Source of the DNA: an uncultured virus (IMG/VR IMGVR_UViG_3300011240_000038)
Lineage: Duplodnaviria > Heunggongvirae > Uroviricota > Caudoviricetes
Strand: one strand, 5' to 3'
Length of the DNA: 20,000 nucleotides
Virus record (IMG/VR): IMGVR_UViG_3300011240_000038
Below, one piece after another: positions 2,090-19,301 of this stretch (positions are counted from its first letter, which is position 1; every line of letters starts with the position of its first letter). The position numbers were made by a program, and so were the translations under genes. Under the pieces are notes generated by a model that searched no databases, was not told where the DNA came from, and saw only the letters and a list, made by a program, of their open reading frames with translations.

Positions 2090-2091
2090 AT

Positions 2092-6604: not shown

Positions 6605-7033
6605 TTATTTATATAAAAATTTATGTTTTAAAAATTTTATATCTATATTTTCGCAGTTAGCAATAGTGTTTATAGATAAACCTTCGTAATTAAGTATTAT
6701 TGACTTATCAATCAACAGCTCAGCTGCAAATTGATCAGCTTGCATTTCATATTTACCTTTAACTTGAGTAGTTTTACTTTCTAAAAAAAGTATATTTAGA
6801 TTACTATGCAATATAGCGTGGCCAAGTTCATGAGCACAAGTAAATAACATATCGATTTCACTTAATCTAATATTTAAGTGAATTATTTTATTTTTTGGAG
6901 CATATTGATAAAATCCATGAATAGACCCTAAATCTTCGTACATAACATTTATTCCAAGAGCATCACATAATTCTCGAGGATCATTAGTTTTATATTTTTT
7001 TACTAAGTTATTTACTAAATTTGAAATTTCCAA
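6605..7033 (-). CDS. ImmA/IrrE-family Zn metallopeptidase (anti-repressor)
   Basis: AHELGH (HExxH) and EMQADQFAAELL motifs; probable TTG start at 7033 after a G-rich SD; directly downstream of the repressor. Confidence 0.9.
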   Translation of the reverse strand: MEISNLVNNLVKKYKTNDPRELCDALGINVMYEDLGSIHGFYQYAPKNKIIHLNIRLSEIDMLFTCAHELGHAILHSNLNILFLESKTTQVKGKYEMQADQFAAELLIDKSIILNYEGLSINTIANCENIDIKFLKHKFLYK

Positions 7034-7086
7034 AATTATATTCCCCCCCAAAAACATCATCAAATTTTACGAAATAAAGTTTGAAA

Positions 7087-7530
7087 TTATTTTTTATATT
7101 TTTTAGGGGTATATTTTATCTTATTCATTTTCTTAGCATACTCAATTCCATTTTGAATAGCAGATTTTAATAATTCCCAGTCTTCATCATTAATAGGATT
7201 ACCGGAAAGCATAAGTCCTTCTTGATTTTCTAAAGACTCCAAGGTACTGTTAAAAATTTTCTCAATATCTTTTTTATCTTTGGGATTTAATTCTAAATCA
7301 TCAAAAGTTGATTTTTTAGGTGATGATATATCACTTCTACCAAGTAAGTAGTCTACAGATACGGAAAAAAAATCGGCAATTCTTTGAAGCAATTCATTTT
7401 CTGGTATTGCTTTATCATTCTCATATTTAGAAATTGAGCTATTATCTATTAAAAGAATATCTGCTAATGATTTTTGTGTTAATCCATGTTTTTTTCGAAG
7501 TTCTTTTAACCTAATACCCAGTGTATTCAT
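7087..7530 (-). CDS. ImmR/CI-like XRE-family repressor
   Basis: LGIRLKELRKKHGLTQKSLA...ISKYEN...IADFFSVSVDYLLGRSD; SD AGGAGGTG; C-terminal KYTPKKY typical of ImmA-cleaved Firmicute phage repressors. Confidence 0.9.
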   Translation of the reverse strand: MNTLGIRLKELRKKHGLTQKSLADILLIDNSSISKYENDKAIPENELLQRIADFFSVSVDYLLGRSDISSPKKSTFDDLELNPKDKKDIEKIFNSTLESLENQEGLMLSGNPINDEDWELLKSAIQNGIEYAKKMNKIKYTPKKYKK

Positions 7531-7553
7531 ATATTTACACCTCCTATAATTAT

Positions 7554-7581
7554 ATTATAACCATATTTGAAGTAAAATCAA
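7554..7581 (-). promoter_or_regulatory. Leftward promoter for repressor-immA
   Basis: Minus strand TTGATT-N16-TATAAT, overlapped by the first operator. Confidence 0.55.
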
Positions 7582-7849
7582 TATAAGTTGAAATAAAATC
7601 AAAAAAAATTCAATATGACTTGACAATTTGAATTTAATTCAATAAAATCAAAATATGAATATTGAATTAAATTCAAATATGGGGGTTGTATAAGAAATGA
7701 AGTATATTTAGAGAAATAACTCAATAATAGTAAATCACGTTATAATTAGAGTGCAGGCTGAAATATGTCTTTAACAAATGAAATATTATATTGAATTTAA
7801 ATCAATATAATATTTCAACAACAAATAATAAAAATTGAATTAAATTCAA
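7567..7849. promoter_or_regulatory. Six 15-bp palindromic operators TTGAA-N5-WTCAA
   Basis: Copies at 7567-7581, 7588-7602, 7628-7642, 7662-7676, 7791-7805, 7835-7849. Confidence 0.85.
7620..7648 (+). promoter_or_regulatory. Rightward (lytic) SigA promoter
   Basis: TTGACA (7620-7625)-N17-TAAAAT (7643-7648), with an operator filling the spacer. Confidence 0.8.
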
Positions 7850-7860
7850 GGGGAATCGGT

Positions 7861-8295
7861 ATGAATATGAATAAAAAAATTGAAACTATGCTTTATAACT
7901 TTAATCAAACGAAAGCAGAAATTAAAAATATAAAACTAGATATAGAGTTATTAGAAAATGAATATGATGACGGAATTGGTGTAAATTACGTGGAGAAGAC
8001 AGGAAAAACTAATAAAATTACTTCAACAGTGGAAAACATGATAATAAGAAAAGAGGCTCAAATTAACAGATTAAATTATGCTATAAAAGTTAAAGAAGCT
8101 GAAATAAAAAAGATTGAAAATGCTCTAGAAATTCTTACAGATAGAGAAAGAAGTATTATTGAAATGAGATATTTTCAGAAGGAAAGTAATAGAAATATTT
8201 CAGCAAAGCTTTATATTACAGAAGAATATGTATCAGCAATAAAGTCAAAAGCTATTAAATCTCTTGCAAATATATTCTTTATAAATTCTTTATAA
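7861..8295 (+). CDS. ArpU/RinA-family phage late transcriptional activator
   Basis: N-terminal coiled region, TNKITSTVE, C-terminal sigma-region-4-like HTH (IENALEILTDRERSIIEMRYF...ISAKLYITEEYVSAIKSKAIKSLA). Confidence 0.85.
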   Translation: MNMNKKIETMLYNFNQTKAEIKNIKLDIELLENEYDDGIGVNYVEKTGKTNKITSTVENMIIRKEAQINRLNYAIKVKEAEIKKIENALEILTDRERSIIEMRYFQKESNRNISAKLYITEEYVSAIKSKAIKSLANIFFINSL

Positions 8296-8355
8296 ATTCT
8301 TTATAAATTTCTTTTAAACTCTCTTTATATAATCGGGTTAAAGCGGTGCTAGAAT
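8275..8355 (+). promoter_or_regulatory. Late promoter: tandem 11-bp activator-binding repeats plus extended -10
   Basis: TTCTTTATAAA x3 (8275-8307) plus two degenerate copies to ~8329; TGcTAGAAT at 8347-8355; no good -35. Confidence 0.65.
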
Positions 8356-8772
8356 AATATCATCGCAGTGGTGATAAGTTATTAAAAGTTGAGTCTTAAG
8401 ATAATAAATTAGTTTTAAATTTTAAAATAAGAATAATAAAGTTTAGATTACTAATTTATCACTATGAGTTATGGTTAAAAAGTTTTATTAACAAATAAGA
8501 AATGGAGCTAAAGGAAAGGGGTGATAACAATGCGGTGACTTTCATATTAAGATTTATAAATTCTTTGAAATACATTAGGATAATTCAAAAAGAAAGAATA
8601 GCCTCTAATTTAAAGTAAATAAAAATATATATTTAAATTTTATTAGCTAAATAGGATCTAGATAAACCATTTCAATTTTAAAAACTAGTAACCAAAGTCT
8701 TAAACTGTGACAATGATTTTAATAAATAGCTAATAGATATTAAAAATATATAAATCAGTAGAGGAGGTAGAA

Positions 8773-9213
8773 ATGAATATAGTAGAAAGTATCAAAGAAT
8801 ATATAGGAACCTGTCCTTATCTAGCAAATATTAATGATGGTATTAATATTAATTACTTAGGTGAAAATACAGTATCCTATATGATAGAAGAACTTCCTAG
8901 AGAACAAATTTTAAAAAAGTATATTGATGGAACTAGTCTTAGACAATACTGTTTCATGTTTGTCAGTAGGGAAGTATGCGGACAAGATGTAGTACAAAAT
9001 ATAGCTAATAGTAAATTCTATGAAAACTTTGCTAAGTGGCTAGAACTTCAATCAGAGCTTAATAATCTACCAGTACTAGATAGTGGGAGAGTGGCACAAA
9101 AAATAGAAGCATTAACAAGTGGTTATGTTTTCGAAAAAAATCTAGATAAAGCACAATATAAAATAGAATGTAGATTGGTATATTACCAAGAAGGAGGAAA
9201 AAATAATGAGTAG
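8773..9213 (+). CDS. Phage tail terminator/completion protein (minor structural)
   Basis: SD GAGGAGGT; first gene of the tail operon, upstream of the tail tube; KKYIDG...RQY.F and AQYKIECRLVYYQE resemble A118-like minor structural proteins. Confidence 0.6.
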   Translation: MNIVESIKEYIGTCPYLANINDGININYLGENTVSYMIEELPREQILKKYIDGTSLRQYCFMFVSREVCGQDVVQNIANSKFYENFAKWLELQSELNNLPVLDSGRVAQKIEALTSGYVFEKNLDKAQYKIECRLVYYQEGGKNNE

Positions 9214-9700
9214 AGAATCAATACAAAGACATCAAATAGCAGATTATATAAATATAGGTGGATCAACAGGTGTAGAAAAATATGAATTAATGGGAGCTGG
9301 ATTTAATACATTAGATGAAAATCCAGCAGCTCAACTTGATACTAAAGTTTATATTAACGATAAATCATCGTCAACTACAATTAAGTCATACCAAACACAA
9401 TTCCCATTCACATCAGATTTAATTAAAAGTGAAGGGGCAGTAATGGCATTATACAATGTTGGAAGAAATCATCTTACAGGTGCAGATGCACAATTTGACT
9501 ATGTTAAAGTTGAACTATTTCAACCAATAGAAGGAAGTGAGAATACTTATAAGGCTAGAAAATTTATAGTAAGTTGTGAAGTTGCTGGATTAGCTGGAGC
9601 AGGCGGAGAAACTATTGTGGTATCAGGAAACTTAAATGCAGTAGGAGATTTTATAGAAGGTACATTCAATACTGCAACAAAAACATTTACTGCAATTTAG
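9206..9700 (+). CDS. Major tail (tube) protein, siphovirus type
   Basis: 164 aa; YELMGAGFNTLDENPAAQ...YIND...TIKSYQTQFPF and GTFNTATKTFTA; position before chaperones and tape measure. Confidence 0.75.
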   Translation: MSRESIQRHQIADYINIGGSTGVEKYELMGAGFNTLDENPAAQLDTKVYINDKSSSTTIKSYQTQFPFTSDLIKSEGAVMALYNVGRNHLTGADAQFDYVKVELFQPIEGSENTYKARKFIVSCEVAGLAGAGGETIVVSGNLNAVGDFIEGTFNTATKTFTAI

Positions 9701-9715
9701 TAGGAGGAATATTTA

Positions 9716-10057
9716 ATGAATATTAATGGAATTGAGCTAGAATTAGATATATTTGATGCCGATGTTGCAGAAAAATATGATAAAGCAATAAAAAAAGTAA
9801 TGAATATAGAAGAAGAAACAAAGGGTATGTCAATTGGAGAAGGGATAAGAACTCAGTGCAAAGCCATCTTTAAAGTTTTTGATGAACTTTTTGGACAAGG
9901 TACTCATGAAAGAGTATTTGGAGATAAAGTTAACTTACTTGAATGTTTAAAGGCTTTTGAGGCTCTAATAACAGGCATAAATGAGAAAAATAAAGAAATT
10001 GAACTCATTGCTAATAAGTATTCTTCTAATAGAATTCAAAGACGTTCTAAAAAATAA
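9716..10057 (+). CDS. Tail assembly chaperone
   Basis: 113-aa acidic helical protein between tail tube and Gp15-like gene; C-terminal NRIQRR. Confidence 0.65.
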   Translation: MNINGIELELDIFDADVAEKYDKAIKKVMNIEEETKGMSIGEGIRTQCKAIFKVFDELFGQGTHERVFGDKVNLLECLKAFEALITGINEKNKEIELIANKYSSNRIQRRSKK

Positions 10058-10653
10058 TGAATATTTTAATTGATGTTTTACCTCGAAAAGTTGAAATAGA
10101 TAATAGAGAATATAAGATTAATTATGATTTTCGTACATCCATTTTGTTTGAGATAATGATTCAGGATGATGAGCTTGATGATAAAGAAAAGATATATAAT
10201 GCTCTTCTTCTATATTATCCAGTAATACCAGATAATTTAGAAGAAGCAATTAAACAAATTCTTTGGTTTTATAGAGGTGGAAAAGATATTAATGAAGGAA
10301 GTAGTGGAGTATCTATGGGTAAGAGTACAAGAGCATATAGTTTTGAATATGACGATGACTATATTTACTCCGCTTTTCTAACCCAATATGACATAGACCT
10401 TCAGGATATAGAAGATTTACATTGGTGGAAATTTAAAGCCATGTTTAGAGCTTTAAAGGAAGACAATGAAATAGTTAAGATTATGGGATATAGATCTATG
10501 ACTATAAATACCAATATGAGCAAAGAACAAAAGGATTTTTATAGTAATATGAAGAGAATTTATGCTATTCCAATGAGTAAATCTAAAAAACAAAAGGTAA
10601 CAGAAATTGAAAATGCTCTTATGGAAAATGGAGACTTAAGGGGAATACTTTGA
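10057..10653 (+). CDS. Bacteriophage Gp15-family tail assembly protein
   Basis: INYDFR, YSFEYDDDYIYSAFLTQYDIDL, LHWWKFKAMF, IMGYR motifs of the A118 gp15-like family. Confidence 0.85.
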   Translation: MNILIDVLPRKVEIDNREYKINYDFRTSILFEIMIQDDELDDKEKIYNALLLYYPVIPDNLEEAIKQILWFYRGGKDINEGSSGVSMGKSTRAYSFEYDDDYIYSAFLTQYDIDLQDIEDLHWWKFKAMFRALKEDNEIVKIMGYRSMTINTNMSKEQKDFYSNMKRIYAIPMSKSKKQKVTEIENALMENGDLRGIL

Positions 10654-10675
10654 TTTTAGTATTCTAACTATAAAA

Positions 10676-10717
10676 ACTAATAAAAAGTGCTTATAAAACT
10701 AGGCACTTTTTATTAGT
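10676..10717. terminator. Intra-operon terminator/attenuator hairpin
   Basis: Perfect 15-bp inverted repeat ACTAATAAAAAGTGC (10676-10690)/GCACTTTTTATTAGT (10703-10717). Confidence 0.7.
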
Positions 10718-10734
10718 AAAGGTAGGTGATTTGC

Positions 10735-10872
10735 ATAGTAAAAGTAAAATGTCCATTTTGTAATAAATTATTAATTAAAGCTGATTACATCAAAGGAGAA
10801 ATAAAATGTAGTAGATGTAAGAGGTTAATAAATATAGAAATAGAAAAGCCAGAGCTTAGAGCCACACCCTAG
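10735..10872 (+). CDS. Mu Com-like zinc-finger protein (~45 aa, not in ORF track)
   Basis: VKVKCPFCNKLLIKADYIKGEIKCSRCKRLINIEIEKPELRATP* with CxxC-x15-CxxC; SD AGGTAGGTGA; no in-frame ATG, probable ATA start at 10735. Confidence 0.75.
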   Translation: MVKVKCPFCNKLLIKADYIKGEIKCSRCKRLINIEIEKPELRATP

Positions 10873-10914
10873 AGTAGTGAGCCGTAGCCTGCTTTATAAA
10901 AGGCAGGTGATATT

Positions 10915-13086
10915 ATGTCAAATACAAGTATAAATGAAGAGATAAATTTAACATTAAAAAGTATATTAGAAAATTTAGAATCACAAGGTGAAGAAGCTAA
11001 AGAGAAAAGTACAAAAATCATTTCTAAATTAGTTACTGGAGCAGGAAAAGAAATAATTAAGGCTAACTCCGTTGCTATGGGTAAAATTGGACAAGGGTTA
11101 AACAAAGGGTTTTCTAAGATAAATTTCTTTGAGTCTATAGCGAAAACTTTTGAAGAAAAAGTAGGAGGGCTTTCAGAAAAAGTAAGAAGAACTTTTAATA
11201 CACTAAAAACTGATATTAAGCTTTGTACAATATTAGTAACAGATGTAATGAAAGAAACAAAGTGGTTTAAAATGGCATCTTCAACTATAGATAGTGCTAA
11301 AAAGGCTTTTGAAAGAATAGGCTCTGAAGTAGGAATATCAGGAAAAGGAGCTTTTCTAAAGATTGCTACTGGGGTCGGTAAAGAAGGAGCAAGTGCGCTT
11401 ATAAATATATCATCTAAAGTTGGAAAGGTAGCATCAACGGCTTTTAGTGGTACTATTAAAGCTATTGGAAAAGTTGGATCTTATGGAATAAAGGCTGGAG
11501 AACAGTTTGCACAAGGAGTATCTAAAATAGCTGATTTTAGTCAAAATGCAGGGAAAGAAATAGAAGACTTAAATGTATCAGCAGCAACTATGGAAGATGG
11601 ATTAGGCCGTGAAGTTACTATATTTAAAAGCTCACTTATGAGTCTTGGAAAAGATATGGGTGATAGCATAGATGGCCCATTAAAAGAAATAACAGCTTCA
11701 GCAACAGGGATGATTGGACAGCTATCTTCAGCATTCCAAGAAGGTGGATTTGAAGGACTTGCAGGTAGTGTTGGAGATGTATTTACTCAAGCAATTACAG
11801 GCATAGCTGACAAGGCTCCTGAATTTATGAATATTGCAGTTTTGATTATAGAATCATTAATAGCTGGATTCCAAGAAAATATGCCGTTAATAGCAGAATC
11901 ATCAATACAGATAATAATGCAGCTAGCTGAGGGTATTATTACCATATTACCTAGTATATTTGAGCTAGGAATTACTTTAATATCTGAATTGTTATTAGGA
12001 TTAGTAGAAGCTATTCCACAGTTAATAACTTTAGCACAAGAATCTATTATAAGTATTATGACATTGATAACGGAAAATTTGCCATTAATTATGGAAAGTG
12101 GATTTCAAATTGTTTTAGCACTTATAAATGGAATATCTGAAATGTTGCCAGAGTTAATACCGCTAGTAATACAAGCCATAACAACTATTATTACATCTAT
12201 AGGAGAAAATTTACCACTTATACTTCAGAGTGGTATAGATATTCTTGTGGCACTTATTAATGGAATAGCAGCAATGTTGCCAGAGTTAATTCCAATGGCT
12301 GTACAAGCTTTGTTAAATATAGTAGATACCCTCATAGTAAATCTTCCACAAGTTATAGATGCAGCTATTAAAATAATAATGGCTTTAATACAAGGAATAA
12401 TTGGAGCATTACCACAATTAATTATGGAAATACCAAAGATAATAAATGGAATAGTATTAGCAGTCATAAATAATTTGCCAGCAATTATAAGTGCGGCAAT
12501 TCAAATAATAATGGCTTTAATACAAGGACTAATTATAGCAATTCCTACGTTAATAGGTAATATACCCACTATAATAGCTGCAATTATAGGAGCTTTTGCT
12601 AAAGCTGATTGGAAACAAATTGGTACAAACTGTTTGGAGGGCTTAAAAAATGGTCTTATAGCAGGGGTTAGTGCAGTAGTTGATACAGTAAGAAATGTAG
12701 CCAGTAGTATAGCAAATGGATTTAAAGACTTTTTTGGAATCCATTCACCATCTACTCTATTTAGAGATATGATAGGTAAAAACCTTGTTAAAGGTATCGG
12801 TTTAGGTATTGATATAGAAACTCCAAATCTTGAAAAAGAAATAGGTGGTAATCTAGAGGATCTAACAAGAAAAATGAGAGCTACAATTGATTTTGAAACT
12901 ACTAAGGTTTCTGGCAATATGGCAATGAACTCTAGTTATAGAGCTGCTATGGAAACTCCATATTCCATAGTAAATAATAATGATAACGGTGTAAATGAAA
13001 TTATTAATATATACCAACCAGTAAAATCACCATCTGAAGTTGCAAGAGCAATAAAAATACAAAGAAAGGAGCTTGCATTTGGATAA
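10915..13086 (+). CDS. Tail tape measure protein (723 aa)
   Basis: Ala/Gly/Ile-rich helical protein with ~11/22-residue Pro-punctuated repeats and FFGIHSPS motif; canonical position. Confidence 0.9.
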   Translation: MSNTSINEEINLTLKSILENLESQGEEAKEKSTKIISKLVTGAGKEIIKANSVAMGKIGQGLNKGFSKINFFESIAKTFEEKVGGLSEKVRRTFNTLKTDIKLCTILVTDVMKETKWFKMASSTIDSAKKAFERIGSEVGISGKGAFLKIATGVGKEGASALINISSKVGKVASTAFSGTIKAIGKVGSYGIKAGEQFAQGVSKIADFSQNAGKEIEDLNVSAATMEDGLGREVTIFKSSLMSLGKDMGDSIDGPLKEITASATGMIGQLSSAFQEGGFEGLAGSVGDVFTQAITGIADKAPEFMNIAVLIIESLIAGFQENMPLIAESSIQIIMQLAEGIITILPSIFELGITLISELLLGLVEAIPQLITLAQESIISIMTLITENLPLIMESGFQIVLALINGISEMLPELIPLVIQAITTIITSIGENLPLILQSGIDILVALINGIAAMLPELIPMAVQALLNIVDTLIVNLPQVIDAAIKIIMALIQGIIGALPQLIMEIPKIINGIVLAVINNLPAIISAAIQIIMALIQGLIIAIPTLIGNIPTIIAAIIGAFAKADWKQIGTNCLEGLKNGLIAGVSAVVDTVRNVASSIANGFKDFFGIHSPSTLFRDMIGKNLVKGIGLGIDIETPNLEKEIGGNLEDLTRKMRATIDFETTKVSGNMAMNSSYRAAMETPYSIVNNNDNGVNEIINIYQPVKSPSEVARAIKIQRKELAFG

Positions 13087-13933
13087 GTATATAGATATTA
13101 AATTAGAATGTAATGGCAAGATTTTAGAGATTGGCAAGGATAAATTATACAAATTAATAAATATAGAAGGAATCTCTAGCTCAGAATATAGTGTAGATAT
13201 TGTAAATAATGCACAATTTGATGGTGGGACTGTTAAAAGTAAAAGAGTAGAATCAAGACTTATAACTATTACAGCAGAATATCCATCAACAGAAGATACA
13301 GAAACTAGAAGACAAAACCTAATTAGATTTTTTAATCCTTATTTAACTGGAAAGTTATATGTAAACTACTCTGGAGTTAAGAGGGTAATTAATTATGAGG
13401 TAGCAGGATTTAAAGATAGTAGAGAGAATTTATATGATCCACTTAAATTTATTATTAATCTGATATGTCCTAATCCATTTTTTAAAGATGAGAGAGAGTT
13501 TAGTAAAAATATGGCTGGTAAAATTAATAGTATTACTGTACCTTTCACTATTCCGGCAAGTGGTATGATTATGTCGGCTAAAGTATTGAGACAAGAGGCT
13601 ACAATAATTAATAATGGAGATAAAGATACAGGGCTGATTATCTCATTTATAGCAAAAGGTGAGGTGAGCAACCCAAAGATAGAAAACTTAACTACAGGAA
13701 AATTTTTAAGGATAGTAGTGGACTTGATGCCTGGTGATATTCTCACAATTAATACGAATAAAGGGAATAAGATGATAGAACTAAATGGGAAAAATATTTC
13801 TCAAAAAATGGATCGTTCTAGCTCTTTTATTGACATGCAGGTAGGAGAAAATATATTAAAATATAGTGCTGATAAAGGATATACAAATCTTAATGTTTAT
13901 CCAAAGTGGACAGCTGAATTCTTTGGGGTGTAG
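13079..13933 (+). CDS. Distal tail protein (Dit)
   Basis: Follows tape measure; LICPNPFF, INNGDKDTG, GDILTINT, GENILKY patterns; TTG13079 is 7 nt after SD GAAAGGAG. Confidence 0.8.
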   Translation: MDKYIDIKLECNGKILEIGKDKLYKLINIEGISSSEYSVDIVNNAQFDGGTVKSKRVESRLITITAEYPSTEDTETRRQNLIRFFNPYLTGKLYVNYSGVKRVINYEVAGFKDSRENLYDPLKFIINLICPNPFFKDEREFSKNMAGKINSITVPFTIPASGMIMSAKVLRQEATIINNGDKDTGLIISFIAKGEVSNPKIENLTTGKFLRIVVDLMPGDILTINTNKGNKMIELNGKNISQKMDRSSSFIDMQVGENILKYSADKGYTNLNVYPKWTAEFFGV

Positions 13934-13936
13934 GAC

Positions 13937-14989
13937 ATGATAGAACTAATTATACTAAATAACAAATTTCAACCAATAGGATTTATAGATGAGTTCACAT
14001 CTCTTATATTGACTAGAAGATATTACAATGTTGGGGAGTATGAGTTATATATAGATTCAAAATATTTTCAGTTATTAAGAAAGGGAGGATATATTTATAG
14101 TTCTAGCTTCAGAGAAGTTGGAATTATAGAAACTTATTCTTATATAAAGGAAGATAGTCAATGTACTATTAAAGGTAGATTTATAGAGGCTTTACTTAGT
14201 TATAGAGTTATAGATAAAATACAAAATCTGAATGGAACAGCTGAAAATATTGTTAGAAATCTTGTAAACAACTTTGCAATTGTTAATAAACCTATAAATA
14301 AACTTCAATTAGGTAATGCGAATGGACTAGGTGCAAGTATTGCATTACAAGTTGAATATGAAAATCTATGCGAAAAAATATATGATATTGTAGCTACTCA
14401 GGATTTATCTATAAGAGTTAAATACAATTATGAAGAGGATAAAATGTATTTTGAAGTGTGGCAAGGAATAGATAGAACGGAAAATCAAAGTTCAAATTCA
14501 ATTGTTGTATTTAGTGATGAATATGAGAACATTTCTACGTCTACCTATGAGTGTAATCATAAAGAATATAAAAACTTTGCTTATGTAGTTGGTGAAGGAG
14601 AGGAAGGTATTAAAGTAATTATTGCTATAGATTTAACCAATGGTAATGAGCGTAGAGAGATTTTCCTTGAAGTCAGAGATAAACAAGATGAATTGACACT
14701 AGAGGAGTATAAAAAAGTATTATATCAAAAGGGAATTGAAAAACTATATGATTATGGAGTTGTTGAAAATGTTAATACGACAGTTAATTCTCTATCTAAT
14801 CTTAAATATAAAGTAGATTATGATTTAGGTGATTTATGTAGTTATGTGGATAATGAGTTAGATATAGTAGTTAATCAGCGAATTACTGAAATAACTGAAG
14901 TATATGAAAATAATAAGCACGATATTTCTATAGTATTTGGTAAAGAAGAAAAAACAATAATGCAAAAATTAAATAGAGAGGTGAAATAA
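13937..14989 (+). CDS. Tail hub/Tal-position protein (ReqiPepy6 Gp37-like family)
   Basis: IDEFTSLILTRRYYNVGEYEL, KNFAYVVGEGE, RREIFLEVRD, YKVDYDLGD motifs; position after Dit. Confidence 0.8.
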   Translation: MIELIILNNKFQPIGFIDEFTSLILTRRYYNVGEYELYIDSKYFQLLRKGGYIYSSSFREVGIIETYSYIKEDSQCTIKGRFIEALLSYRVIDKIQNLNGTAENIVRNLVNNFAIVNKPINKLQLGNANGLGASIALQVEYENLCEKIYDIVATQDLSIRVKYNYEEDKMYFEVWQGIDRTENQSSNSIVVFSDEYENISTSTYECNHKEYKNFAYVVGEGEEGIKVIIAIDLTNGNERREIFLEVRDKQDELTLEEYKKVLYQKGIEKLYDYGVVENVNTTVNSLSNLKYKVDYDLGDLCSYVDNELDIVVNQRITEITEVYENNKHDISIVFGKEEKTIMQKLNREVK

Positions 14990-14990
14990 A

Positions 14991-16178
14991 ATGTCAATTA
15001 TAAGTGGAATATTTCCTAGCGAAATTGTAGATATAGACGAAAGTGGGCTTCCTATTTATGATAGGGCTGTGGATGAAGAATATTTTGCAAAATATCATAG
15101 TGAATTTTTAAGTAATGGTGTATATGCCAATCCATCAAATAATTTTCAAGTAATGGTTAATGACTTGATGAAATTGAAAGTAAAGGCAGGTAGCTGTTTT
15201 ATAAATGGTTATTATGCCTATGATAATTTTGATGGAGAAATAATTCTTGAGCCAGCAAGTTCAGATTTAAATAGAATAGATAGAATTGTAACAAGATTAG
15301 ATAGGATAAATAGAAAAATATCTATAGAAGTAAAAAAGGGTGCCTATGGAACTGTTTCATATTCAGCACCTAGCCTACAAAGAGATGATGATATATGGGA
15401 GTTAGGACTTGCAGATGTATTAGTTAAAAAGGGGACAACTCAAATAGTACAAGCAAATATAACAGACCTGAGACCTATACAAGAATATTGTGGTTATGTA
15501 TATAATCCAATGCAAAATATAGATACTACGGATTTATTTGCTCAATATGATAATTCTTTTGAAGTATGGTTTCAACATGTTAAAGATCAGTTAAGTACTG
15601 ATGCAGCTGGAAATTTACAGAAACAGATTGATACACATACTTCGGAATTGGAAGATTTCATGAGTTTCTTTAATAATGGTGGAAGAGTATCAGGTAAGGT
15701 AAGTACAAATGGAATTACAGTTAAACAAGATGATGGAAATGCAATAGTACTTTCAACTGGAGTTGATGGAAAATTCAAAATACAAAAATATTTAGCTAAT
15801 GGTTCTTGGGATTATGATATAATGATGGAAAAAGATGGGTATATAGAAGTGGGAAAAGATTTATATATGGGAAATTACAGTAGGAAAACTAATGGGTACA
15901 CAAAAATCTCTAATGGAATGATATTACAATGGGGTACTAGCAATTTATTAGCAACAAATTATTCTTCAAATGGAGCTTCATTTAAAACAGGTGTGGGGTA
16001 TTTTCCTATTGCTTTTCCTAATACGTGTTTAAATGTAGTAGCTGTATCAGGATTTAGAGAATATACGCTATCAATAGCAAATACAGGCAAAACTCAATTT
16101 AATGCAGAAGGTTGCTGTGTTGCTAATGGTCCTAGTGATTCCACAAGGCCGTTTCATTGGATAGCGATAGGATATTAA
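14991..16178 (+). CDS. Baseplate/tail fibre receptor-binding protein
   Basis: Conserved-looking N-terminal baseplate domain (NGVY...VKAG...ING...RIDRIV...ITDLR...CG), short coiled coil, C-terminal fibre domain (NGYTKISNGMILQWG...FPIAFPN...WIAIGY). Confidence 0.8.
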   Translation: MSIISGIFPSEIVDIDESGLPIYDRAVDEEYFAKYHSEFLSNGVYANPSNNFQVMVNDLMKLKVKAGSCFINGYYAYDNFDGEIILEPASSDLNRIDRIVTRLDRINRKISIEVKKGAYGTVSYSAPSLQRDDDIWELGLADVLVKKGTTQIVQANITDLRPIQEYCGYVYNPMQNIDTTDLFAQYDNSFEVWFQHVKDQLSTDAAGNLQKQIDTHTSELEDFMSFFNNGGRVSGKVSTNGITVKQDDGNAIVLSTGVDGKFKIQKYLANGSWDYDIMMEKDGYIEVGKDLYMGNYSRKTNGYTKISNGMILQWGTSNLLATNYSSNGASFKTGVGYFPIAFPNTCLNVVAVSGFREYTLSIANTGKTQFNAEGCCVANGPSDSTRPFHWIAIGY

Positions 16179-16194
16179 AGGGGGAGGTAATAAT

Positions 16195-16500
16195 ATGTTG
16201 TATATGGATTTGGATATTGAAAAAAAAAATAATGGATTTTATACAGAAGATATACATGGGATAGAAAAATGTGAAACTATACTAGCACAAGAGGGACTAT
16301 TAGTAGATGAAGAACTATGGCAGCATCTGTTAGTTGTAGAAGAATGTAAATTTATCGGTACAGTAGAACAAAGAGAATATACTATTTTAGATAAAGATTT
16401 ATTTGAGAAAATAATACAACCAGTAGATACTAAACCTCAACAACCTTTACTAGAAGAAAGGCTTGCTGCTCTTGAAACGTTAATGATGGGAGTGATATAG
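16195..16500 (+). CDS. Putative tail fibre assembly chaperone
   Basis: Acidic 101-aa protein right after the fibre; GFYTEDIHG and EERLAALE motifs; SD GGGGAGG. Confidence 0.6.
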   Translation: MLYMDLDIEKKNNGFYTEDIHGIEKCETILAQEGLLVDEELWQHLLVVEECKFIGTVEQREYTILDKDLFEKIIQPVDTKPQQPLLEERLAALETLMMGVI

Positions 16501-16647
16501 ATGAATCCTTTTTATAACTTTTTAAAAAATATGTGGATTATGAGAAAAGCTGATGAAGAGTATCTTCAAGCTAGAGTTGGTAAGAATCAAATAACCCAGG
16601 AAGAGTATAATGAAATAGTAGCAATGAAACAAGTTCAGGAGCAATAG
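16501..16647 (+). CDS. XkdX-family small phage protein (48 aa, not in ORF track)
   Basis: MNPFYNFLKNMWIMRKADEEYLQARVGKNQITQEEYNEIVAMKQVQEQ* with ITxEEYxEI signature; SD GGGAGTG. Confidence 0.75.
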   Translation: MNPFYNFLKNMWIMRKADEEYLQARVGKNQITQEEYNEIVAMKQVQEQ

Positions 16648-16673
16648 AAGTATATTGTGAAATGATTTAATAG

Positions 16674-16705
16674 AAAAGAGATTAGATTTAATTCTAGTCT
16701 CTTTT
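16674..16705. terminator. Terminator after tail genes
   Basis: AAAAGAGATTAGA/TCTAGTCTCTTTT stem with one G-U pair. Confidence 0.7.
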
Positions 16706-16752
16706 GCTTATAACAAAGTATATAAGTATAGTTAAAAGATAGATATATAAGT

Positions 16753-17086
16753 GAAAATTATATAAAGATTATATTAGTAGGCATAGGAATTGGAATAACA
16801 TGGCTATTAGGAACATTAAATATTGTAATAATTCTAATAGATAAGGAATATGAGTATATCTTACAAAAAGGTATTAGGTGATGTTGTATTTAAAGGTGTT
16901 GTTAGAAAATCTGTTATATTTATAGTTAAAGTATTATTGGATGGACTTTTGAATGCTAGTACAAGGATATCTAGAGCTCTTGTATGCTATTTTTATTTAG
17001 ATAATTAAAGTATTTAATTATTAGAGAATTGCGAGGGGAGGTTACTTATATCACACAAAATAAAAGATGTAGTAGTAAAATATTTA
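16753..17086 (+). pseudogene. Decayed phage holin (Phage_holin_4_1-like)
   Basis: Frame 1 NYIKIILVGIGIGITWLLGT; frame 2 FKGVVRKSVIFIV..LLDGLLN....RALVCYFYLDN*SI*LLENC; stops at 17006-17008 and 17015-17017, frameshift near 16840-16870. Confidence 0.7.
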
Positions 17087-17202
17087 AGTATGAATATATC
17101 AGTAATAACGCAGGGCGTGTATAAATTAATTATAGGTATAGGGTTTGTATATAGATAATAGAAATAAGCATAAGAATAAGTTTAAAATTAGGAAGGTGAA
17201 AT

Positions 17203-17436
17203 ATGAATGATGAATTAATAAAGCATAAGTTAGAAATACATGAGAAAAGAATTAATAATCATAGCGAGCGTATTGATGAACTTGAAAGAGGAAGAGCTGC
17301 TACAGATGTTAAGATGGATAACCTCTGCGAAAAGCTTGAGGCACAGACAAAGAGTATAAATTGGTTAATAGGACTTATGGCTACAAGTTTGCTAGGGTTC
17401 TTTTTTCATGCAATTCAAACTAATTTATTTAAATAG
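17203..17436 (+). CDS. XhlA-family holin-associated protein
   Basis: HEKRINNHSERIDELE coiled coil plus single C-terminal TM helix; SD GGAAGGTG; lysis cassette position. Confidence 0.8.
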   Translation: MNDELIKHKLEIHEKRINNHSERIDELERGRAATDVKMDNLCEKLEAQTKSINWLIGLMATSLLGFFFHAIQTNLFK

Positions 17437-17451
17437 GAAGGAGAGATAATT

Positions 17452-17697
17452 ATGAATATTATTAATTACATTACAGAAAATGCTTTAATTTTAATACCAG
17501 TACTTTATATTATAGGTATGATTTTAAAAGGAATTGAAAGAATAAAAGATAAATATATACCATTAATACTATTACCTATAGGTATAGGTCTAGCTATGGC
17601 ACTTATGGGCATTAATATAAATGCTATAATTCAAGGTGTTCTAGTAGTAGGTGTTAGTGTTTATACAAATCAACTTATAAAACAAATTAATAAGTAG
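17452..17697 (+). CDS. Phage holin (81 aa, ~3 TM)
   Basis: LILIPVLYIIGMILK...KDKYIPLILL...AIIQGVLV...NQLIKQ; precedes the endolysin. Confidence 0.85.
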   Translation: MNIINYITENALILIPVLYIIGMILKGIERIKDKYIPLILLPIGIGLAMALMGININAIIQGVLVVGVSVYTNQLIKQINK

Positions 17698-17702
17698 TTT
17701 AC

Positions 17703-17727
17703 AGAGTGGGAGAAATCTCACTCTTTT
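17703..17727 (+). terminator. Hairpin between holin and endolysin
   Basis: AGAGTGGGA-GAAA-TCTCACTCT followed by short T-tract. Confidence 0.55.
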
Positions 17728-17748
17728 ATATTTAAGGAGGAATTGATT

Positions 17749-18657
17749 ATGAAATTAAGAGGTATAGACGTATCACATCACCAAGGGACTATTGATTGGG
17801 ATAGGGTTAAAAGTCAGATAGATTATGCAATCTTGAGTGTAGGATATGGTGATAACATAACAAGCCAGGATGACAAGCAATTCCATAGAAATGCTAAAGA
17901 ATGTACTAGACTTGGGATACCCTTTGGAGTTTATATTTATTCTTATGCAATCTCAATATCACAAGCCAAAAGTGAAGCGGATCATATCCTAAGATTAATA
18001 AAAGGATATGAACTAAAATATCCAGTTTATTATGATTTAGAAGATGCAGGGACTACAGGAAAGTGCTCTAATAAACTTATAGCAGATATGGCGGAGGTAT
18101 TTTGCAATGCTATAGAAAAGACTGGTTATTGGGCAGGTATTTATGCTAATACATCCTGGTTTAATAATAAGCTAACAGATAACAGGTTTAATAAATGGGT
18201 TAAGTGGGTGGCTCAATATAATACGACTTGTACCTATAAAGGTAAACATGATATGTGGCAATATGTTAGTGATGGAAGAGTAAATGGCATTAGTGGTAAT
18301 GTAGATATGAACTATTGCTATGTTGATTATCCTGGACTAATTAATTCTAAAGATAACATAGATAAACCAGAAAAACCAAAACTTAATACAGATAGTAAAG
18401 AGGAAAATAAAATGGATTATATTATACAATATTCAAATGCAACAGACCAGGCAATAGCTGAGGTAATAGCTGATAGGATTAACTGTCCAACAATAAACTG
18501 TTTAAGACCATATGCACATTATGGACAATATAAAACAGTTATTGCAGTAGGAGAGGCTAAGAATAAGAGTGGTTATACAAATGTACTTATCCAGGGTAAG
18601 AATAGAGAGGAAACATTAGATAAGGCTATAGATTATTGTAAGAAGTTAGGTAAATAA
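17749..18657 (+). CDS. Endolysin: GH25 muramidase plus C-terminal cell-wall-binding domain
   Basis: GIDVSHHQGTIDW, GVYIYSYA, YPVYYDLE, WVAQY, MWQY, GNVDMN; ATG17749 after SD AAGGAGGA; C-terminal DQAIAEVIADRINCPTIN resembles the CTP1L/CD27L-type domain. Confidence 0.9.
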   Translation: MKLRGIDVSHHQGTIDWDRVKSQIDYAILSVGYGDNITSQDDKQFHRNAKECTRLGIPFGVYIYSYAISISQAKSEADHILRLIKGYELKYPVYYDLEDAGTTGKCSNKLIADMAEVFCNAIEKTGYWAGIYANTSWFNNKLTDNRFNKWVKWVAQYNTTCTYKGKHDMWQYVSDGRVNGISGNVDMNYCYVDYPGLINSKDNIDKPEKPKLNTDSKEENKMDYIIQYSNATDQAIAEVIADRINCPTINCLRPYAHYGQYKTVIAVGEAKNKSGYTNVLIQGKNREETLDKAIDYCKKLGK

Positions 18658-19046: not shown

Positions 19047-19264
19047 AAATATGAAATATAGATGTTAAGTTTATATGTGGTTTTTAAAAGAAACTACATT
19101 AGATATTTATAAGTAGTACAAAGAAATGACTAAATGAATGTTAACTGACTTTATAATTTATATAGGAAACTATTTAACTATTTAAATAGTTGTTTTATTC
19201 ATGCAGGTTTGAAGGAATTCAGATTATAGGTGATGTGAGTAAAGGGGGTATATAAAGGTGCAAT

Positions 19265-19293: not shown

Positions 19294-19301
19294 GGTAAAG
19301 A

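What the first reader, a model, noticed from the sequence alone, without database searches (positions are those of the whole stretch)
6605..18657. Candidate clostridial F-type (non-contractile) tailocin with monocin-like architecture
Seen: ImmA, repressor, operators, ArpU activator, tail terminator, tube, chaperones, tape measure, Dit, hub, fibre, holins and endolysin are all intact. The activator's late promoter leads straight into tail genes, skipping the packaging and head block, and there is no integrase beside immA. Known: the Listeria monocin (lma/ftb) locus has the same order (metalloprotease, repressor, ArpU-like activator, A118-like tail, lysis), whereas the characterised C. difficile diffocins are contractile R-type. 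Inference: this is a domesticated flexible-tail bacteriocin. Clean loss of whole modules with intact tail ORFs, next to a heavily decayed holin, argues for selection rather than random decay. At ~0.15 nm per residue, the 723-aa tape measure predicts ~100-110 nm particles.
Basis: partly seen in the sequence, partly recalled or inferred. Interest (0 to 1): 0.9.

Follow-up and report, generated by a model that had tools for sequence, protein, structure and literature searches.

The report
Head-less phage-tail bacteriocin locus in Clostridium
A Clostridium chromosome carries a phage tail gene set with its own switch and lysis genes but no head genes, kept intact by selection, and it is most likely a flexible-tail bacteriocin like one recently seen in Clostridium histolyticum.

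Summary
Window 6605-18980 encodes an ImmA protease, a Cro/CI repressor, six operator sites, a sigma-region-4 late activator, a tail terminator, tube, two chaperones, a 723-aa tape measure, Dit, hub, fibre, XhlA, holin and a GH25 lysin. There are no head, packaging, connector, replication or integrase genes. The same head-less element lies at the same chromosomal site in C. subterminale JCM 1417 (93.6% nt identity) and in two other isolates. Tail-trunk dN/dS is 0.10-0.17. Neutral drift would give about 28 premature stops per lineage, and none is seen. The fibre tip and the lysis cassette are swapped between strains. The tube is about 40% identical to the C. histolyticum F-type tailocin tube (PDB 11OK). 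The terminator model best matches the monocin cap.

Corrections:
- Window 1-5480 is the right arm of a separate complete prophage, and IMG/VR merges the two into one 72-kb "provirus".
- The activator is below cut-off for ArpU.
- Likeness to monocin is in gene order and fold, not sequence.
- Two of three distant head-less relatives are incomplete, so head loss also happens by plain decay.

Verdict: a well-supported candidate F-type tailocin and a new member of a known kind. Particles and killing are untested.

The parts
1..5480 (+). Not part of the element. This is the right arm of a separate complete siphovirus prophage ('prophage A'): HTH 636-887, ParM-like partition protein 1029-1895, and a phrog_5156 776-aa protein 3125-5455. 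It is inserted into the FAD gene.
   Evidence: Searches give the domains. In one search the window matches G001:52330-72254 at 99%. One search shows that G001 1-50 kb holds a serine recombinase, RecT, TerS/TerL, SPP1 portal, scaffold, capsid, a 1106-aa TMP, tail, XhlA/holin/amidase. This stretch is absent next to the element in L003 and in isolate runs X3 and X6.
5481..6507 (+). Left chromosomal flank. This is the 3' three-quarters of a GidA/TrmFO-family FAD gene, which is 425 aa when intact in C. subterminale. Its first ~251 nt are displaced by prophage A.
   Evidence: Pfam GIDA. The blastn break is at 5481. dN/dS is 0.035.
6605..7063 (-). ImmA/IrrE-type zinc metalloprotease, the presumed anti-repressor.
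   Evidence: Peptidase_M78, 7.2e-21; phrog_87; HELGH motif.
7087..7530 (-). Cro/CI-type repressor.
   Evidence: HTH_3, 3.1e-16; RstR-family, 1.8e-20; 98% aa identity to the L003 copy, dN/dS 0.019.
7567..7849 (.). Switch region with six operator-like palindromes (TTGAATTNAATTCAA) and divergent sigma-70-like promoters. The + promoter is at 7620-7648 (TTGACA-17-TAAAAT). The - promoter is at 7581-7554 (TTGATT-16-TATAAT).
   Evidence: L003 has six sites at the matching place.
7861..8295 (+). Small late-gene activator with sigma-70 region 4 (RinA/ArpU/Ltr-like superfamily). It is not assignable to ArpU.
   Evidence: Sigma70_r4, 6e-11; phrog_36, 3e-24; RinA and ArpU both below cut-off.
8296..8772 (+). 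Conserved non-coding spacer, the presumed late promoter and leader. An 11-nt tandem repeat lies at 8267-8321, with one more copy at 8553-8566.
   Evidence: 96% mean column identity across three genomes. RNA fold z-score is 0.01. No Rfam match. Repeats.
8773..9213 (+). Tail terminator (cap) protein.
   Evidence: phrog_3266 'tail completion', 7e-46. The AlphaFold model has pLDDT 76.6. Its best PDB matches are Listeria Antigen B 4acv (E 5e-4) and the monocin cap 9j1j_A (E 2e-3, TM 0.42-0.47).
9206..9700 (+). Tail tube protein.
   Evidence: phmmer 8.6e-27 to PDB 11OK, the C. histolyticum tailocin tube. 68% identical to the phiCD111 tube N-terminal part.
9716..10653 (+). Two tail assembly chaperone genes: DUF6673 at 9716-10057 and Phage_Gp15 at 10057-10653.
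   Evidence: The order is the same as in phiCD111.
10726..10872 (+). 48-aa CxxC...CxxC zinc-ribbon ORF of unknown role.
   Evidence: ORF only; not tested further.
10915..13086 (+). Tape measure protein, 723 aa.
   Evidence: phrog_5493, 1.3e-66, and other TMP PHROGs. Lengths are 728 aa in L003 and 720 aa in L002.
13073..13933 (+). Distal tail protein (Dit).
   Evidence: SPP1_Dit, 2.2e-15; phrog_33.
13937..14989 (+). Baseplate hub / Tal-like protein.
   Evidence: Sipho_Gp37, 1.7e-66; phrog_538.
14991..16178 (+). Fibre / receptor-binding protein. The N-terminal ~233 aa are conserved and the C-terminus is strain-specific.
   Evidence: Gp53-like_C, 3.4e-14. Similarity to L003 ends at 15683-15689. 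Isolate X6 carries 1073 other letters in place of 15684-16640.
16195..16647 (+). Two small fibre-associated ORFs. The first is 101 aa (16195-16500) with no family. The second is a 48-aa XkdX-like ORF (16501-16647).
   Evidence: Phage_XkdX 24.7 bits against a cut-off of 23.5. The 101-aa ORF has no match to the 94-aa ORF at the same place in L003.
16865..17080 (+). Decayed holin_4_1 pseudogene.
   Evidence: 50% aa match to residues 76-151 of the intact L003 holin. The frames are broken by stops.
17203..18657 (+). Lysis cassette: XhlA 17203-17436, Hol44-type holin 17452-17697, GH25 endolysin 17743-18657.
   Evidence: XhlA is 94.8% aa identical to that of prophage A.
18762..18980 (+). 72-aa protein that consists only of a LexA-type DNA-binding domain. 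It lies at the right end of the element and its role is unknown.
   Evidence: LexA_DNA_bind, 1.5e-18; TIGR00498 residues 4-71 only.
19085..19161 (+). Decayed second copy of part of the FAD gene. It marks the right border.
   Evidence: 78% over 77 nt to 6105-6181. L003 has a larger direct partial copy at 19685-20313.
19177..19856 (+). Right chromosomal flank shared with C. subterminale.
   Evidence: 88.7% over 683 nt to the DNA just beyond the L003 element.

Best explanation
Window ~6.6-19.1 kb is a chromosomal, head-less siphovirus-tail element that works as an F-type (flexible, non-contractile) phage tail-like bacteriocin.

Proposed mechanism:
1. In the resting state the Cro/CI repressor sits on the six palindromic operators and shuts the rightward promoter. 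The sites are shown; binding is inferred.
2. On DNA damage or another stress the ImmA-type metalloprotease cleaves the repressor. This is inferred from ImmR/ImmA of ICEBs1 and from MpaR of the monocin locus.
3. The small sigma-region-4 activator is then made and turns on a late promoter in the conserved 477-nt spacer (inferred).
4. One rightward operon yields terminator, tube, chaperones, tape measure, Dit, hub and fibre. These assemble into capped tails of roughly 108-120 nm (inferred).
5. XhlA, holin and the GH25 lysin lyse the producer cell and release the particles (inferred).
6. The strain-specific fibre tip binds a surface receptor on related clostridia. The hub and tape measure then breach the membrane and kill without replication. 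This step is inferred from monocin and is not tested.
For: Gene content:
- The tail, switch and lysis gene sets are complete. There is no sheath, capsid, portal, terminase, connector, replication or integrase gene in 6605-19080.
- The left cut falls exactly where a tailocin should begin. In phiCD111 and in 5 of the 6 head-bearing relatives, homologues of the stopper and the tail-to-head joining protein lie directly before the terminator. Here the activator and spacer do.

Conservation:
- The same element lies at the same site in C. subterminale JCM 1417, where the left flank is housekeeping (ScpA/B, PBP5) and no prophage is nearby.
- It is contiguous with the FAD gene in isolate runs X3 and X6.
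- 14 DNA runs each hold at least 65% of the sampled words of 8296-16178.

Selection:
- dN/dS is 0.10-0.17 for terminator, tube, both chaperones and Dit, while dS is 0.04-0.25.
- At that divergence about 28 premature stops per lineage are expected under neutrality. 0 of 2000 simulated replicates stayed open, yet all tail ORFs are open.

Tailocin-like variation:
- The fibre C-terminus plus its small partner ORF, and the lysis cassette, differ between the window, L003 and X6.

Homology to proven particles:
- The tube scores 8.6e-27 against PDB 11OK, about 40% identity by my count of the printed alignment. 11OK is the tube of the F-type tailocin particles found in C. histolyticum collagenase.
- The terminator model best matches the monocin cap.

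Regulatory layout:
- A repressor-metalloprotease pair faces early genes across divergent promoters, as described for monocin (passages of PMC6872733).

Weak hint of transcription:
- RNA-library contigs of an isolate (X16) and of a soil metatranscriptome (X15) lie on tube, tape measure and fibre.
Against: - No particle, proteomic or killing data exist for this locus.
- The RNA contigs do not prove transcription, because DNA can be present in such libraries.
- Close copies were found in only 2 of 78 scored species representatives among relatives of C. subterminale, so the element is young and narrow in range.
- Tape measure, hub and fibre have higher dN/dS (0.37-0.65).
- Head loss in this tail lineage also happens as plain decay. 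Of three distant head-less relatives, L029 lacks a detectable terminator and L034 lacks hub and fibre.
- Head-less clusters are scattered among head-bearing ones on the tree.
- The terminator, which is the head-joining face, is retained. That fits a tailocin but does not exclude joining to foreign heads.
- One holin is decayed.
- Fold matches of the terminator are modest (TM 0.34-0.47).
Confidence: 0.68

Rival explanations
1. It is a cryptic prophage remnant with no present function. A deletion removed the head block, the rest has not yet decayed, and the apparent selection is carried over from gene flow with live phages.
For: - Two of three distant head-less relatives are visibly incomplete.
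- Head-less clusters are interspersed with head-bearing prophages on the tree. At least 3 changes are forced by well-supported branches, and the label is no more clustered than shuffles (217 of 500 shuffles are as low).
- A holin pseudogene lies in the element.
- The 98.5-100% identical Dit/hub tract between window and L003 shows recent recombination.
- XhlA is 94.8% identical to that of the neighbouring prophage.
Against: - The activator-spacer-terminator junction is collinear and 96% identical in three genomes. Head loss therefore predates their split.
- Since that split, dS of 0.04-0.25 has accumulated with dN/dS of 0.10-0.17 and no stop.
- Switch, tail and lysis modules are all intact in both fully seen copies.
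- None of the 12 insertions or deletions listed for X3 and X6 lies in 8773-15683; 4 more rows were not shown.
Confidence: 0.17
2. The tails are made, but they serve as spare tails that join DNA-filled heads made by another resident element. That element could be a related prophage or a capsid-forming satellite. In this reading the locus widens the host range of transduction rather than killing.
For: - The terminator, which forms the head-joining face, is kept and is under purifying selection.
- C. subterminale also carries a head-bearing prophage of the same tail lineage, with 47% terminator identity and its own stopper and joining-protein homologues (L027).
Against: - That prophage, and prophage A in this strain, each have a full tail set of their own.
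- No homologue of the joining protein was found with this query in the UBA1056 genome, which carries the head-less cluster. That genome is a MAG, so absence is not shown.
- Known tailocins (monocin, the C. histolyticum particles) also keep the terminator as a cap.
Confidence: 0.08
3. It is simply the tail end of the 72-kb provirus that IMG/VR calls at this place, that is, one large phage with two tail sets.
For: - G001 is classed as a single provirus of 72,254 bp with 100% CheckV completeness. It holds the window at 99% identity.
- The two parts share a near-identical XhlA.
Against: - A fragment of a chromosomal FAD gene separates the two parts.
- C. subterminale and isolate X6 carry the tail element without the upstream prophage. 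In X6 the contig runs on about 12 kb beyond 5481 in DNA unlike the window.
- Prophage A has its own repressor, activator, tail and lysis genes. It has no homologue of the element's terminator, tube, chaperones, tape measure, Dit, hub or fibre.
Confidence: 0.03

Closest known systems
F-type tailocin of Clostridium histolyticum NCTC 503 (locus 02168-02181; tube structure PDB 11OK; bioRxiv 10.64898/2026.06.17.733002, abstract and sections 5 and 26 read)
   Same: Clostridial, head-less and non-contractile. The order is terminator, tube, chaperones, tape measure, Dit, hub, RBP, lysis. The tube proteins are homologous (8.6e-27, about 40% identity).
   Different: That locus has a duplicated tube gene (TTP*), and particles were seen by EM and MS. 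Here there is a single tube gene and no particle data. Its regulators are not described in the sections I read. The other proteins could not be compared because only the tube is in the PDB.
Monocin (ftb/lma locus) of Listeria monocytogenes (PMC11830787 and PMC6872733, passages read)
   Same: The module order is the same: repressor + DUF955/M78 metalloprotease facing early genes across divergent promoters, then terminator, tube, two chaperones, tape measure (622 aa vs 723 aa), Dit, hub, fibres, holin-lysin. The terminator model matches the monocin cap fold.
   Different: There is no sequence-level match of terminator, Dit, hub or fibre to any PDB chain, monocin's included. The tube matches only 11OK at E <= 0.001. 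Monocin has a three-protein side-fibre set (FtbN/O/P). Here there is one fibre gene plus two small ORFs. The activator here is a sigma-region-4 protein. The identity of the monocin early regulators was not checked.
C. difficile siphophages phiCD111 / phiCD38-2 / phiCD146 (Leicestervirus)
   Same: These are the closest phage relatives of the tail trunk. The tube is 64-68% identical. The order terminator-tube-DUF6673-like-Gp15-tape measure-Dit is the same.
   Different: They are complete phages with terminase, portal, capsid and connectors directly upstream of the terminator. Their tube is 266 aa, carrying an extra C-terminal part, against 164 aa here. Their tape measure is 1767 aa. There is no nucleotide-level match.
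Efagins of Enterococcus faecalis (bioRxiv 10.64898/2025.12.13.693970, passages read)
   Same: Chromosomal, head-less, non-contractile tail-like particles of a Gram-positive bacterium, with regulatory, structural and lysis modules.
   Different: The authors report little or no sequence identity between such systems. No comparison was run here.
Diffocins (R-type) of C. difficile
   Same: A tail-like bacteriocin in a clostridial relative.
   Different: Diffocins are contractile, with sheath and baseplate. No sheath gene is present here.

Membership tests
F-type (non-contractile) phage tail-like bacteriocin | Full siphovirus tail gene set (terminator, tube, chaperones, tape measure, Dit, hub, receptor-binding fibre) and no sheath | tested here: met
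   All ORFs are open.
F-type (non-contractile) phage tail-like bacteriocin | No capsid, portal, terminase or head-tail connector genes in the element | tested here: met
   for the window; for L003. Probes for TerL, portal, capsid, adaptor, stopper and joining protein hit the head-bearing relatives. In this strain's near-identical record G001 the TerL, portal and capsid genes lie at 25.9-33.4 kb in prophage A, upstream of the window's start at G001 52330.
F-type (non-contractile) phage tail-like bacteriocin | No means of self-replication or integration (fixed chromosomal locus) | tested here: met
   No integrase or replication gene lies in 6605-19080. The flanks are the same in C. subterminale.
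F-type (non-contractile) phage tail-like bacteriocin | Own lysis cassette for release | tested here: met
   XhlA, Hol44 holin and GH25 lysin are intact. L003 has holin_4_1 plus Amidase_3.
F-type (non-contractile) phage tail-like bacteriocin | Maintained by selection in the host lineage, with variable receptor-binding part | tested here: met
   dN/dS; neutral simulation; three different fibre C-termini.
F-type (non-contractile) phage tail-like bacteriocin | Head-less particles are produced and kill sensitive strains without forming plaques | not testable with these tools
   Needs induction, EM/MS and spot assays.
Monocin (ftb) family proper | Sequence homology of structural proteins to FtbF-FtbP | tested here: not met
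   phmmer against all PDB chains found no match for terminator, Dit, hub or fibre. The tube matches only 11OK at E <= 0.001. Only a fold-level match of the terminator to 9j1j/4acv was found.
Monocin (ftb) family proper | Gene order and a repressor-metalloprotease switch | tested here: met
   compared with passages.
C. histolyticum-type clostridial F-type tailocin | Tube homologous to the 11OK tube; same structural gene order | tested here: met
   (8.6e-27). The order follows Fig. 1D legend and text.
ArpU family late regulator (TIGR01637) | Score over the family's curated cut-off | tested here: not met
   27.1 bits against 43.1. RinA scores 30.5 against 31.9, and the sigma70-ECF superfamily 40.3 against 42.9. 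Pfam Sigma70_r4 passes.
R-type tailocin (diffocin-like) | Sheath and contractile baseplate genes | tested here: not met
   None was found among the Pfam or PHROG hits.

The most novel reading that the evidence does not exclude
The phiCD111-like siphovirus tail lineage has given rise several times, independently, to head-less bacteriocin loci in different Clostridium species, each cut at the same point so that the late activator is fused to the tail terminator. In this strain the element's ImmA protease may also act as the anti-repressor of the adjoining prophage. That prophage has a CI-like repressor with no protease domain and no ImmA of its own. One switch would then fire both elements, a convergent copy of the MpaR circuit of Listeria.
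Probability: 0.2. Interest if true: 0.65.

Novelty: new member of a known kind. Interest (0 to 1): 0.5.

Why it matters
Flexible-tail bacteriocins of Gram-positive bacteria are known from very few cases: monocin, efagin and, since a 2026 preprint, particles in C. histolyticum collagenase.

This locus offers a second clostridial example, and it has features that make it directly testable:
- a clear regulatory switch;
- a natural series of fibre-tip variants;
- a named, culturable carrier, C. subterminale JCM 1417.

Such particles are narrow-spectrum killers and can be re-targeted by swapping the fibre tip. They also matter for strain competition in soil, sediment and gut clostridia.

There is a practical point as well. 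Virus catalogues can merge such a locus with a neighbouring prophage into one "complete" provirus, as happened here.

Tried and rejected
Searches that found nothing:
- Nucleotide search of 6605-18657 against 50,697 phage records: no match.
- The whole window against plasmids: one 372-nt match in the right flank to a C. tetani plasmid. The ParM gene therefore does not make this a plasmid.
- No whole genome is held for the window.
- No Rfam family in the window.
- No SOS (Cheo) box at up to 1 mismatch.
- Earlier findings of this scan: none by place or by sequence.

Ideas dropped:
- A shared att site at window 5481. The partial gene copy at the right end of L003 starts near nt 36 of the gene, not nt 251.
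- The 477-nt spacer as a structured RNA: fold z-score 0.01.
- The spacer as a remnant of terS or head genes: only chance-level blastn and tblastx matches to 10 loci.
- Its 39-codon ORF as a gene: frameshifted in UBA1056.
- Head-less clusters having shorter tape measures: 583-906 aa against 713-1767 aa, with overlapping ranges.
- A single origin of all head-less clusters: not supported by the tree.

Sequencing runs:
- Parts of the window without RNA-contig cover, and the small-share runs that I did not lay (X17-X20), say nothing.
- A joint 6647->19160 in X3 rests on only 21 letters on one side, so it was not used.

Full report
**What is in the window**

The window is AT-rich, with 24-34% G+C. 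It falls into four parts.

*Part 1: bases 1-5480.* These encode an HTH protein, a ParM-like partition protein and a 776-aa phrog_5156 protein. No whole genome is held for the window. A 72,254-bp IMG/VR provirus record, G001, matches window 66-20000 at 99% identity at its positions 52330-72254. The first ~50 kb of G001 encode a complete siphovirus:
- a large serine recombinase and a CI-like repressor;
- YqaJ/RecT;
- small and large terminase, SPP1-type portal, scaffold and major capsid protein;
- a 1106-aa tape measure and a 1536-aa tail protein;
- XhlA, holin and amidase.

So window 1-5480 is the right arm of a neighbouring prophage, which I call prophage A. It is not a plasmid and not part of the finding.

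*Part 2: bases 5481-6507.* This is the 3' three-quarters of a GidA/TrmFO-family FAD gene. The gene is 425 aa when intact in C. subterminale. Its score is far below the TrmFO cut-offs, so I do not name it TrmFO.

*Part 3: about 6.6-19.1 kb.* This is the element in question.

*Part 4: bases 19177-19856.* This is chromosomal DNA shared with C. subterminale.

**Check of the observation**

Their coordinates are in the parts list. Points beyond the bare gene list:
- ImmA keeps its HELGH zinc motif.
- The operator palindrome TTGAATTNAATTCAA occurs six times at up to 2 mismatches. All six lie between the repressor and the activator, against 0.79 expected, and 0 of 200 shuffles reach six.
- A TTGACA-17-TAAAAT site lies among the operators on the + strand, and a TTGATT-16-TATAAT site on the - strand. 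The overall count of promoter-like sites is no higher than in shuffles, so this is a reading and not a test.
- The 164-aa ORF after the terminator has no Pfam family. It scores 8.6e-27 against PDB 11OK, 'phage tail tube protein'.
- A model of the 146-aa terminator was built on 10 homologues (mean pLDDT 76.6, pTM 0.73). Its best PDB matches are Listeria Antigen B (4acv, E 5e-4) and the cap region of monocin (9j1j_A, E 2e-3). Phage neck and terminator proteins follow. TM-scores are modest at 0.34-0.47.
- The holin_4_1 remnant is real. It matches residues 76-151 of the intact C. subterminale holin at 50%, and it is split over two frames with stops.
- I add a 48-aa XkdX-like ORF at 16501-16647, a 48-aa zinc-ribbon ORF at 10726-10872, and a 72-aa LexA-DNA-binding-domain-only ORF at 18762-18980.

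Two labels need softening:
- The activator has sigma-70 region 4 and matches phrog_36. It is below cut-off for ArpU (27.1 against 43.1 bits) and for RinA (30.5 against 31.9).
- No late promoter was identified. What lies between activator and terminator is a 477-nt non-coding spacer.

**Where the cut lies**

The closest phages by protein are the C. difficile siphophages phiCD111, phiCD38-2 and phiCD146. Their tube is 64-68% identical in 9 of the 16 matching records. There is no nucleotide match to any phage record.

In phiCD111 the order is terminases, portal, capsid, adaptor, two connector proteins, 'tail completion', tube, chaperone, Gp15, tape measure, Dit. The window starts exactly at the tail-completion (terminator) gene. 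It lacks everything from terminase to the last connector.

In 5 of the 6 head-bearing relatives that I fetched (L027, L030, L032, L033, L035), homologues of the two phiCD111 connector proteins lie directly before the terminator. L004 has only one of them and no detected terminator.

**Relatives and synteny**

A scan of one genome per species found three loci among 40 candidate stretches.

*C. subterminale JCM 1417 (L003).*
- It matches window 5481-15683 at 93.6% over 10,228 nt.
- To the left of the intact FAD gene lie PBP5, ScpA, ScpB and a YtfJ sporulation protein.
- To the right come ImmA, repressor, six operator sites, activator, terminator, tube, chaperones, a 728-aa tape measure, Dit, hub and a 421-aa fibre.
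- These are followed by a 94-aa ORF, an intact 154-aa holin_4_1, an Amidase_3 lysin, a small HTH_17 gene and a partial direct copy of the FAD gene.
- The DNA beyond that matches window 19177-19856 at 88.7%.
- The element therefore sits at the same chromosomal site, without prophage A, and is head-less there too.

*Clostridium sp. UBA1056 (L002/L028).*
- It shares activator to tape measure at 90%, but in another context.
- Upstream lie an iron ABC transporter, a second sigma-like gene and a BhlA holin.
- It has a different Dit, and the contig then ends. No head genes are upstream there either.

*Wider search.* Among 81 relatives of C. subterminale, 78 were scored and 9 had a tube match. Only these two genomes matched at 95-96% identity. 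The rest matched at 37-48%.

*Sequencing runs.* A search found 14 DNA runs holding at least 65% of the sampled words of 8296-16178, among 20 holders from 13 studies. I laid four runs on the window.
- Isolate run X3 covers 5481-20000 in pieces with 0-11 differing letters each. It has essentially nothing on 1-5480.
- Isolate run X6 has one 24,955-letter contig covering 5481-15683 with 53 differences. It then carries 1073 other letters in place of 15684-16640, which is a third fibre tip.
- By its record coordinates that contig continues about 12 kb beyond 5481 in DNA that does not lie on the window.
- Prophage A is thus a strain-specific insertion, and the IMG/VR 'provirus' merges two elements.

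**Selection**

Window against L003, by the Nei-Gojobori method:

| Gene | dN/dS | dS |
|---|---|---|
| Terminator | 0.17 | 0.12 |
| Tube | 0.11 | 0.24 |
| DUF6673 chaperone | 0.14 | 0.25 |
| Gp15 chaperone | 0.14 | 0.25 |
| Dit | 0.11 | 0.04 |
| Hub | 0.37 | 0.06 |
| Tape measure | 0.45 | 0.15 |
| Fibre (aligned part) | 0.45 | 0.50 |

- Against L002 the values are similar, and the tape measure is 0.65.
- The flanking FAD gene has dS 0.37, so the element is no older than the split of the hosts.
- The activator-spacer-terminator junction is collinear and 96% identical in the three genomes. Head loss therefore came before they diverged.
- I simulated neutral substitution at half the observed dS per gene over the 2212 tail codons. 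It gave a mean of 28 premature stops per lineage, and 0 of 2000 replicates stayed open. The real ORFs are all open.
- None of the 12 insertions or deletions listed for X3 and X6 falls in 8773-15683; 4 more rows were not shown.
- The identity profile is mosaic. The operator region 7601-7800 is only 73.6% identical, although the repressor is 98% identical. Dit and hub (13001-14600) are 98.5-100% identical, a sign of recent exchange.

**Comparison with known systems**

*C. histolyticum.* A 2026 preprint reports F-type tailocin particles in commercial C. histolyticum collagenase (10.64898/2026.06.17.733002; abstract and sections 5 and 26 read).
- It gives a 3.5-A tube structure (PDB 11OK) and MS detection of six proteins of locus NCTC503_02168-02181.
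- The window's tube is homologous to that tube, about 40% identical by my count of 62 of 155 aligned residues.
- This is the closest known system, and it shows that tails of this tube family can exist as head-less particles.

*Monocin.* Passages of PMC11830787 and PMC6872733 describe:
- the same order: cap FtbF, tube FtbG, chaperones FtbH/I, a 622-aa tape measure, Dit, hub, fibres, holin-lysin;
- a switch made of a CI-like repressor and a DUF955 metalloprotease facing early genes across divergent promoters.

The architecture is thus monocin-like. However, phmmer against all PDB chains found nothing for terminator, Dit, hub or fibre. The locus is not a sequence relative of monocin.

*Literature coverage.* In two full-text searches the C. 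histolyticum preprint was the only paper I found that reports a clostridial F-type tailocin. A review of solventogenic clostridia deals with R-type elements.

**How it most likely works**

The steps are given under Best explanation. The gene content, the operator sites, the conservation and the selection are shown. The cleavage of the repressor, the activator's promoter, particle assembly, release and killing are inferred from homologous or analogous systems.

*Predicted length.*
- 723 aa x 0.15 nm, a rule recalled from general knowledge, gives about 108 nm.
- Scaling from monocin (622 aa, 103 nm) gives about 120 nm.
- With the 3.7-nm rise of the C. histolyticum tube this is about 29-32 rings.

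*Transcription.* RNA-library contigs lie on the tail genes in an isolate run (X16: tube with 2 differences in 508 letters, tape measure, fibre). They also lie on them in a soil metatranscriptome (X15). Such contigs cannot prove transcription.

**Results that cut the other way**

I fetched seven more loci with 35-48% tube identity, plus L004 and L027.
- Six are head-bearing prophages.
- Three are head-less (L029, L031, L034). All three have an ImmA-repressor pair and a sigma-like activator upstream of the tail genes, next to housekeeping genes.
- Only L031 looks complete within the stretch.
- L029 has no detectable terminator.
- L034 stops after Dit and still keeps replication genes.

On a tree of terminator + tube + chaperones (13 rows, none dropped):
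- The three close copies form one starred clade.
- The head-less label as a whole needs 4 changes, at least 3 of them forced by starred branches.
- The label is no more clustered than in shuffles.

Head loss in this lineage is therefore recurrent, and at least sometimes it is plain decay.

Other negative points:
- Tape-measure lengths do not separate the two classes.
- The element is also narrow in range.

These points keep the confidence at about two-thirds rather than higher.

**Verdict**

The locus is a strong candidate F-type tailocin, related through its tube to the C. histolyticum particles and laid out like monocin. It is a new member of a known kind. It is of moderate interest, mainly as a directly testable second clostridial case with natural fibre-tip variants and a possible shared switch with a neighbouring prophage.

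Noticed in passing
window 1-5480; G001 1-57745: IMG/VR record G001 (72,254 bp, 'provirus', CheckV 100%) merges a complete serine-recombinase siphovirus prophage with the separate head-less tail element. The prophage is inserted in a GidA-family FAD gene at window 5480/5481. It is absent at that place in C. subterminale and in isolate runs X3 and X6.
   Followed up: yes
G001 2096-2506 (L012) and window 6605-7063: The CI-like repressor of prophage A has no peptidase domain, and no ImmA gene lies beside it. The tail element next door has an ImmA. The two repressors are 34% identical over the HTH part. This mirrors the Listeria case, where the monocin protease MpaR also induces the resident prophage. 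Cross-cleavage was not tested.
   Followed up: partly
window 18762-18980 and 18715-18735: A 72-aa ORF consists only of the LexA DNA-binding domain, with no S24 protease part. It is preceded by GGAACAAATGTTTG, which is two mismatches from the recalled SOS-box consensus. It could be an uncleavable LexA-like repressor. C. subterminale has a small HTH_17 gene at this place instead.
   Followed up: partly
window 8267-8772: The 477-nt non-coding spacer between activator and terminator is 96% identical in three genomes, at least as conserved as the coding DNA around it. No stable RNA fold (z 0.01) and no Rfam hit explain this. An 11-nt unit TTCTTTATAAA is repeated 3-4 times in tandem at the activator's stop codon, with one copy fewer in the relatives. 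A further 14-nt copy lies at 8553-8566. These are candidate activator sites.
   Followed up: partly
window 7601-7800 vs L003: The operator/promoter region is only 73.6% identical between window and C. subterminale, while the repressor protein is 98% identical. The six operator sites are kept in both.
   Followed up: partly
window 13001-14600 vs L003: Dit and most of the hub are 98.5-100% identical to C. subterminale, against about 90-96% elsewhere. This points to recent recombination between elements of different strains.
   Followed up: no
window 17203-17436 and G001 45833-46063: The XhlA of the tail element and that of the neighbouring prophage are 94.8% identical in protein (75% nt over 17176-17760). 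The holins are only 41% identical. The lysis cassette was probably exchanged with a phage of that kind.
   Followed up: partly
window 19085-19161; L003 19685-20313: The element is bracketed by an intact FAD gene on the left and a decayed partial direct copy of the same gene on the right. The copy is large in C. subterminale and is a 77-nt trace here. How the duplication arose is unexplained.
   Followed up: partly
window 19165-19216: Many contigs of isolate runs break here. Summed depth rises about ten-fold in X6 (442-576 against about 49), which suggests a short multi-copy repeat in these genomes.
   Followed up: no
window 10726-10872: A 48-aa ORF with two CxxC pairs (a zinc-ribbon, Com-like by recall) lies between the Gp15 chaperone and the tape measure. 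Head-bearing relatives have a 166-213-aa ORF at this position instead.
   Followed up: no
L029 (G039), L031 (G045), L034 (G015): Three further head-less tail clusters of the same lineage occur in other Clostridium-relative genomes. Each has an ImmA-repressor pair and a sigma-like activator next to housekeeping genes. L031 looks complete, L029 lacks a terminator, and L034 lacks hub and fibre but keeps replication genes.
   Followed up: partly
G001 47370-49787; window 3125-5455: Prophage A carries an 805-aa protein with a weak SIR2_2 match after its lysin. It also carries a 776-aa phrog_5156 protein of unknown function next to ParM. Both are possible accessory or defence genes.
   Followed up: no
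window 19296-19667: The right-flank ORF 19302-19697 (131 aa, no family) is 78% identical in DNA to a hypothetical gene on a 51.8-kb C. tetani plasmid.
   Followed up: no
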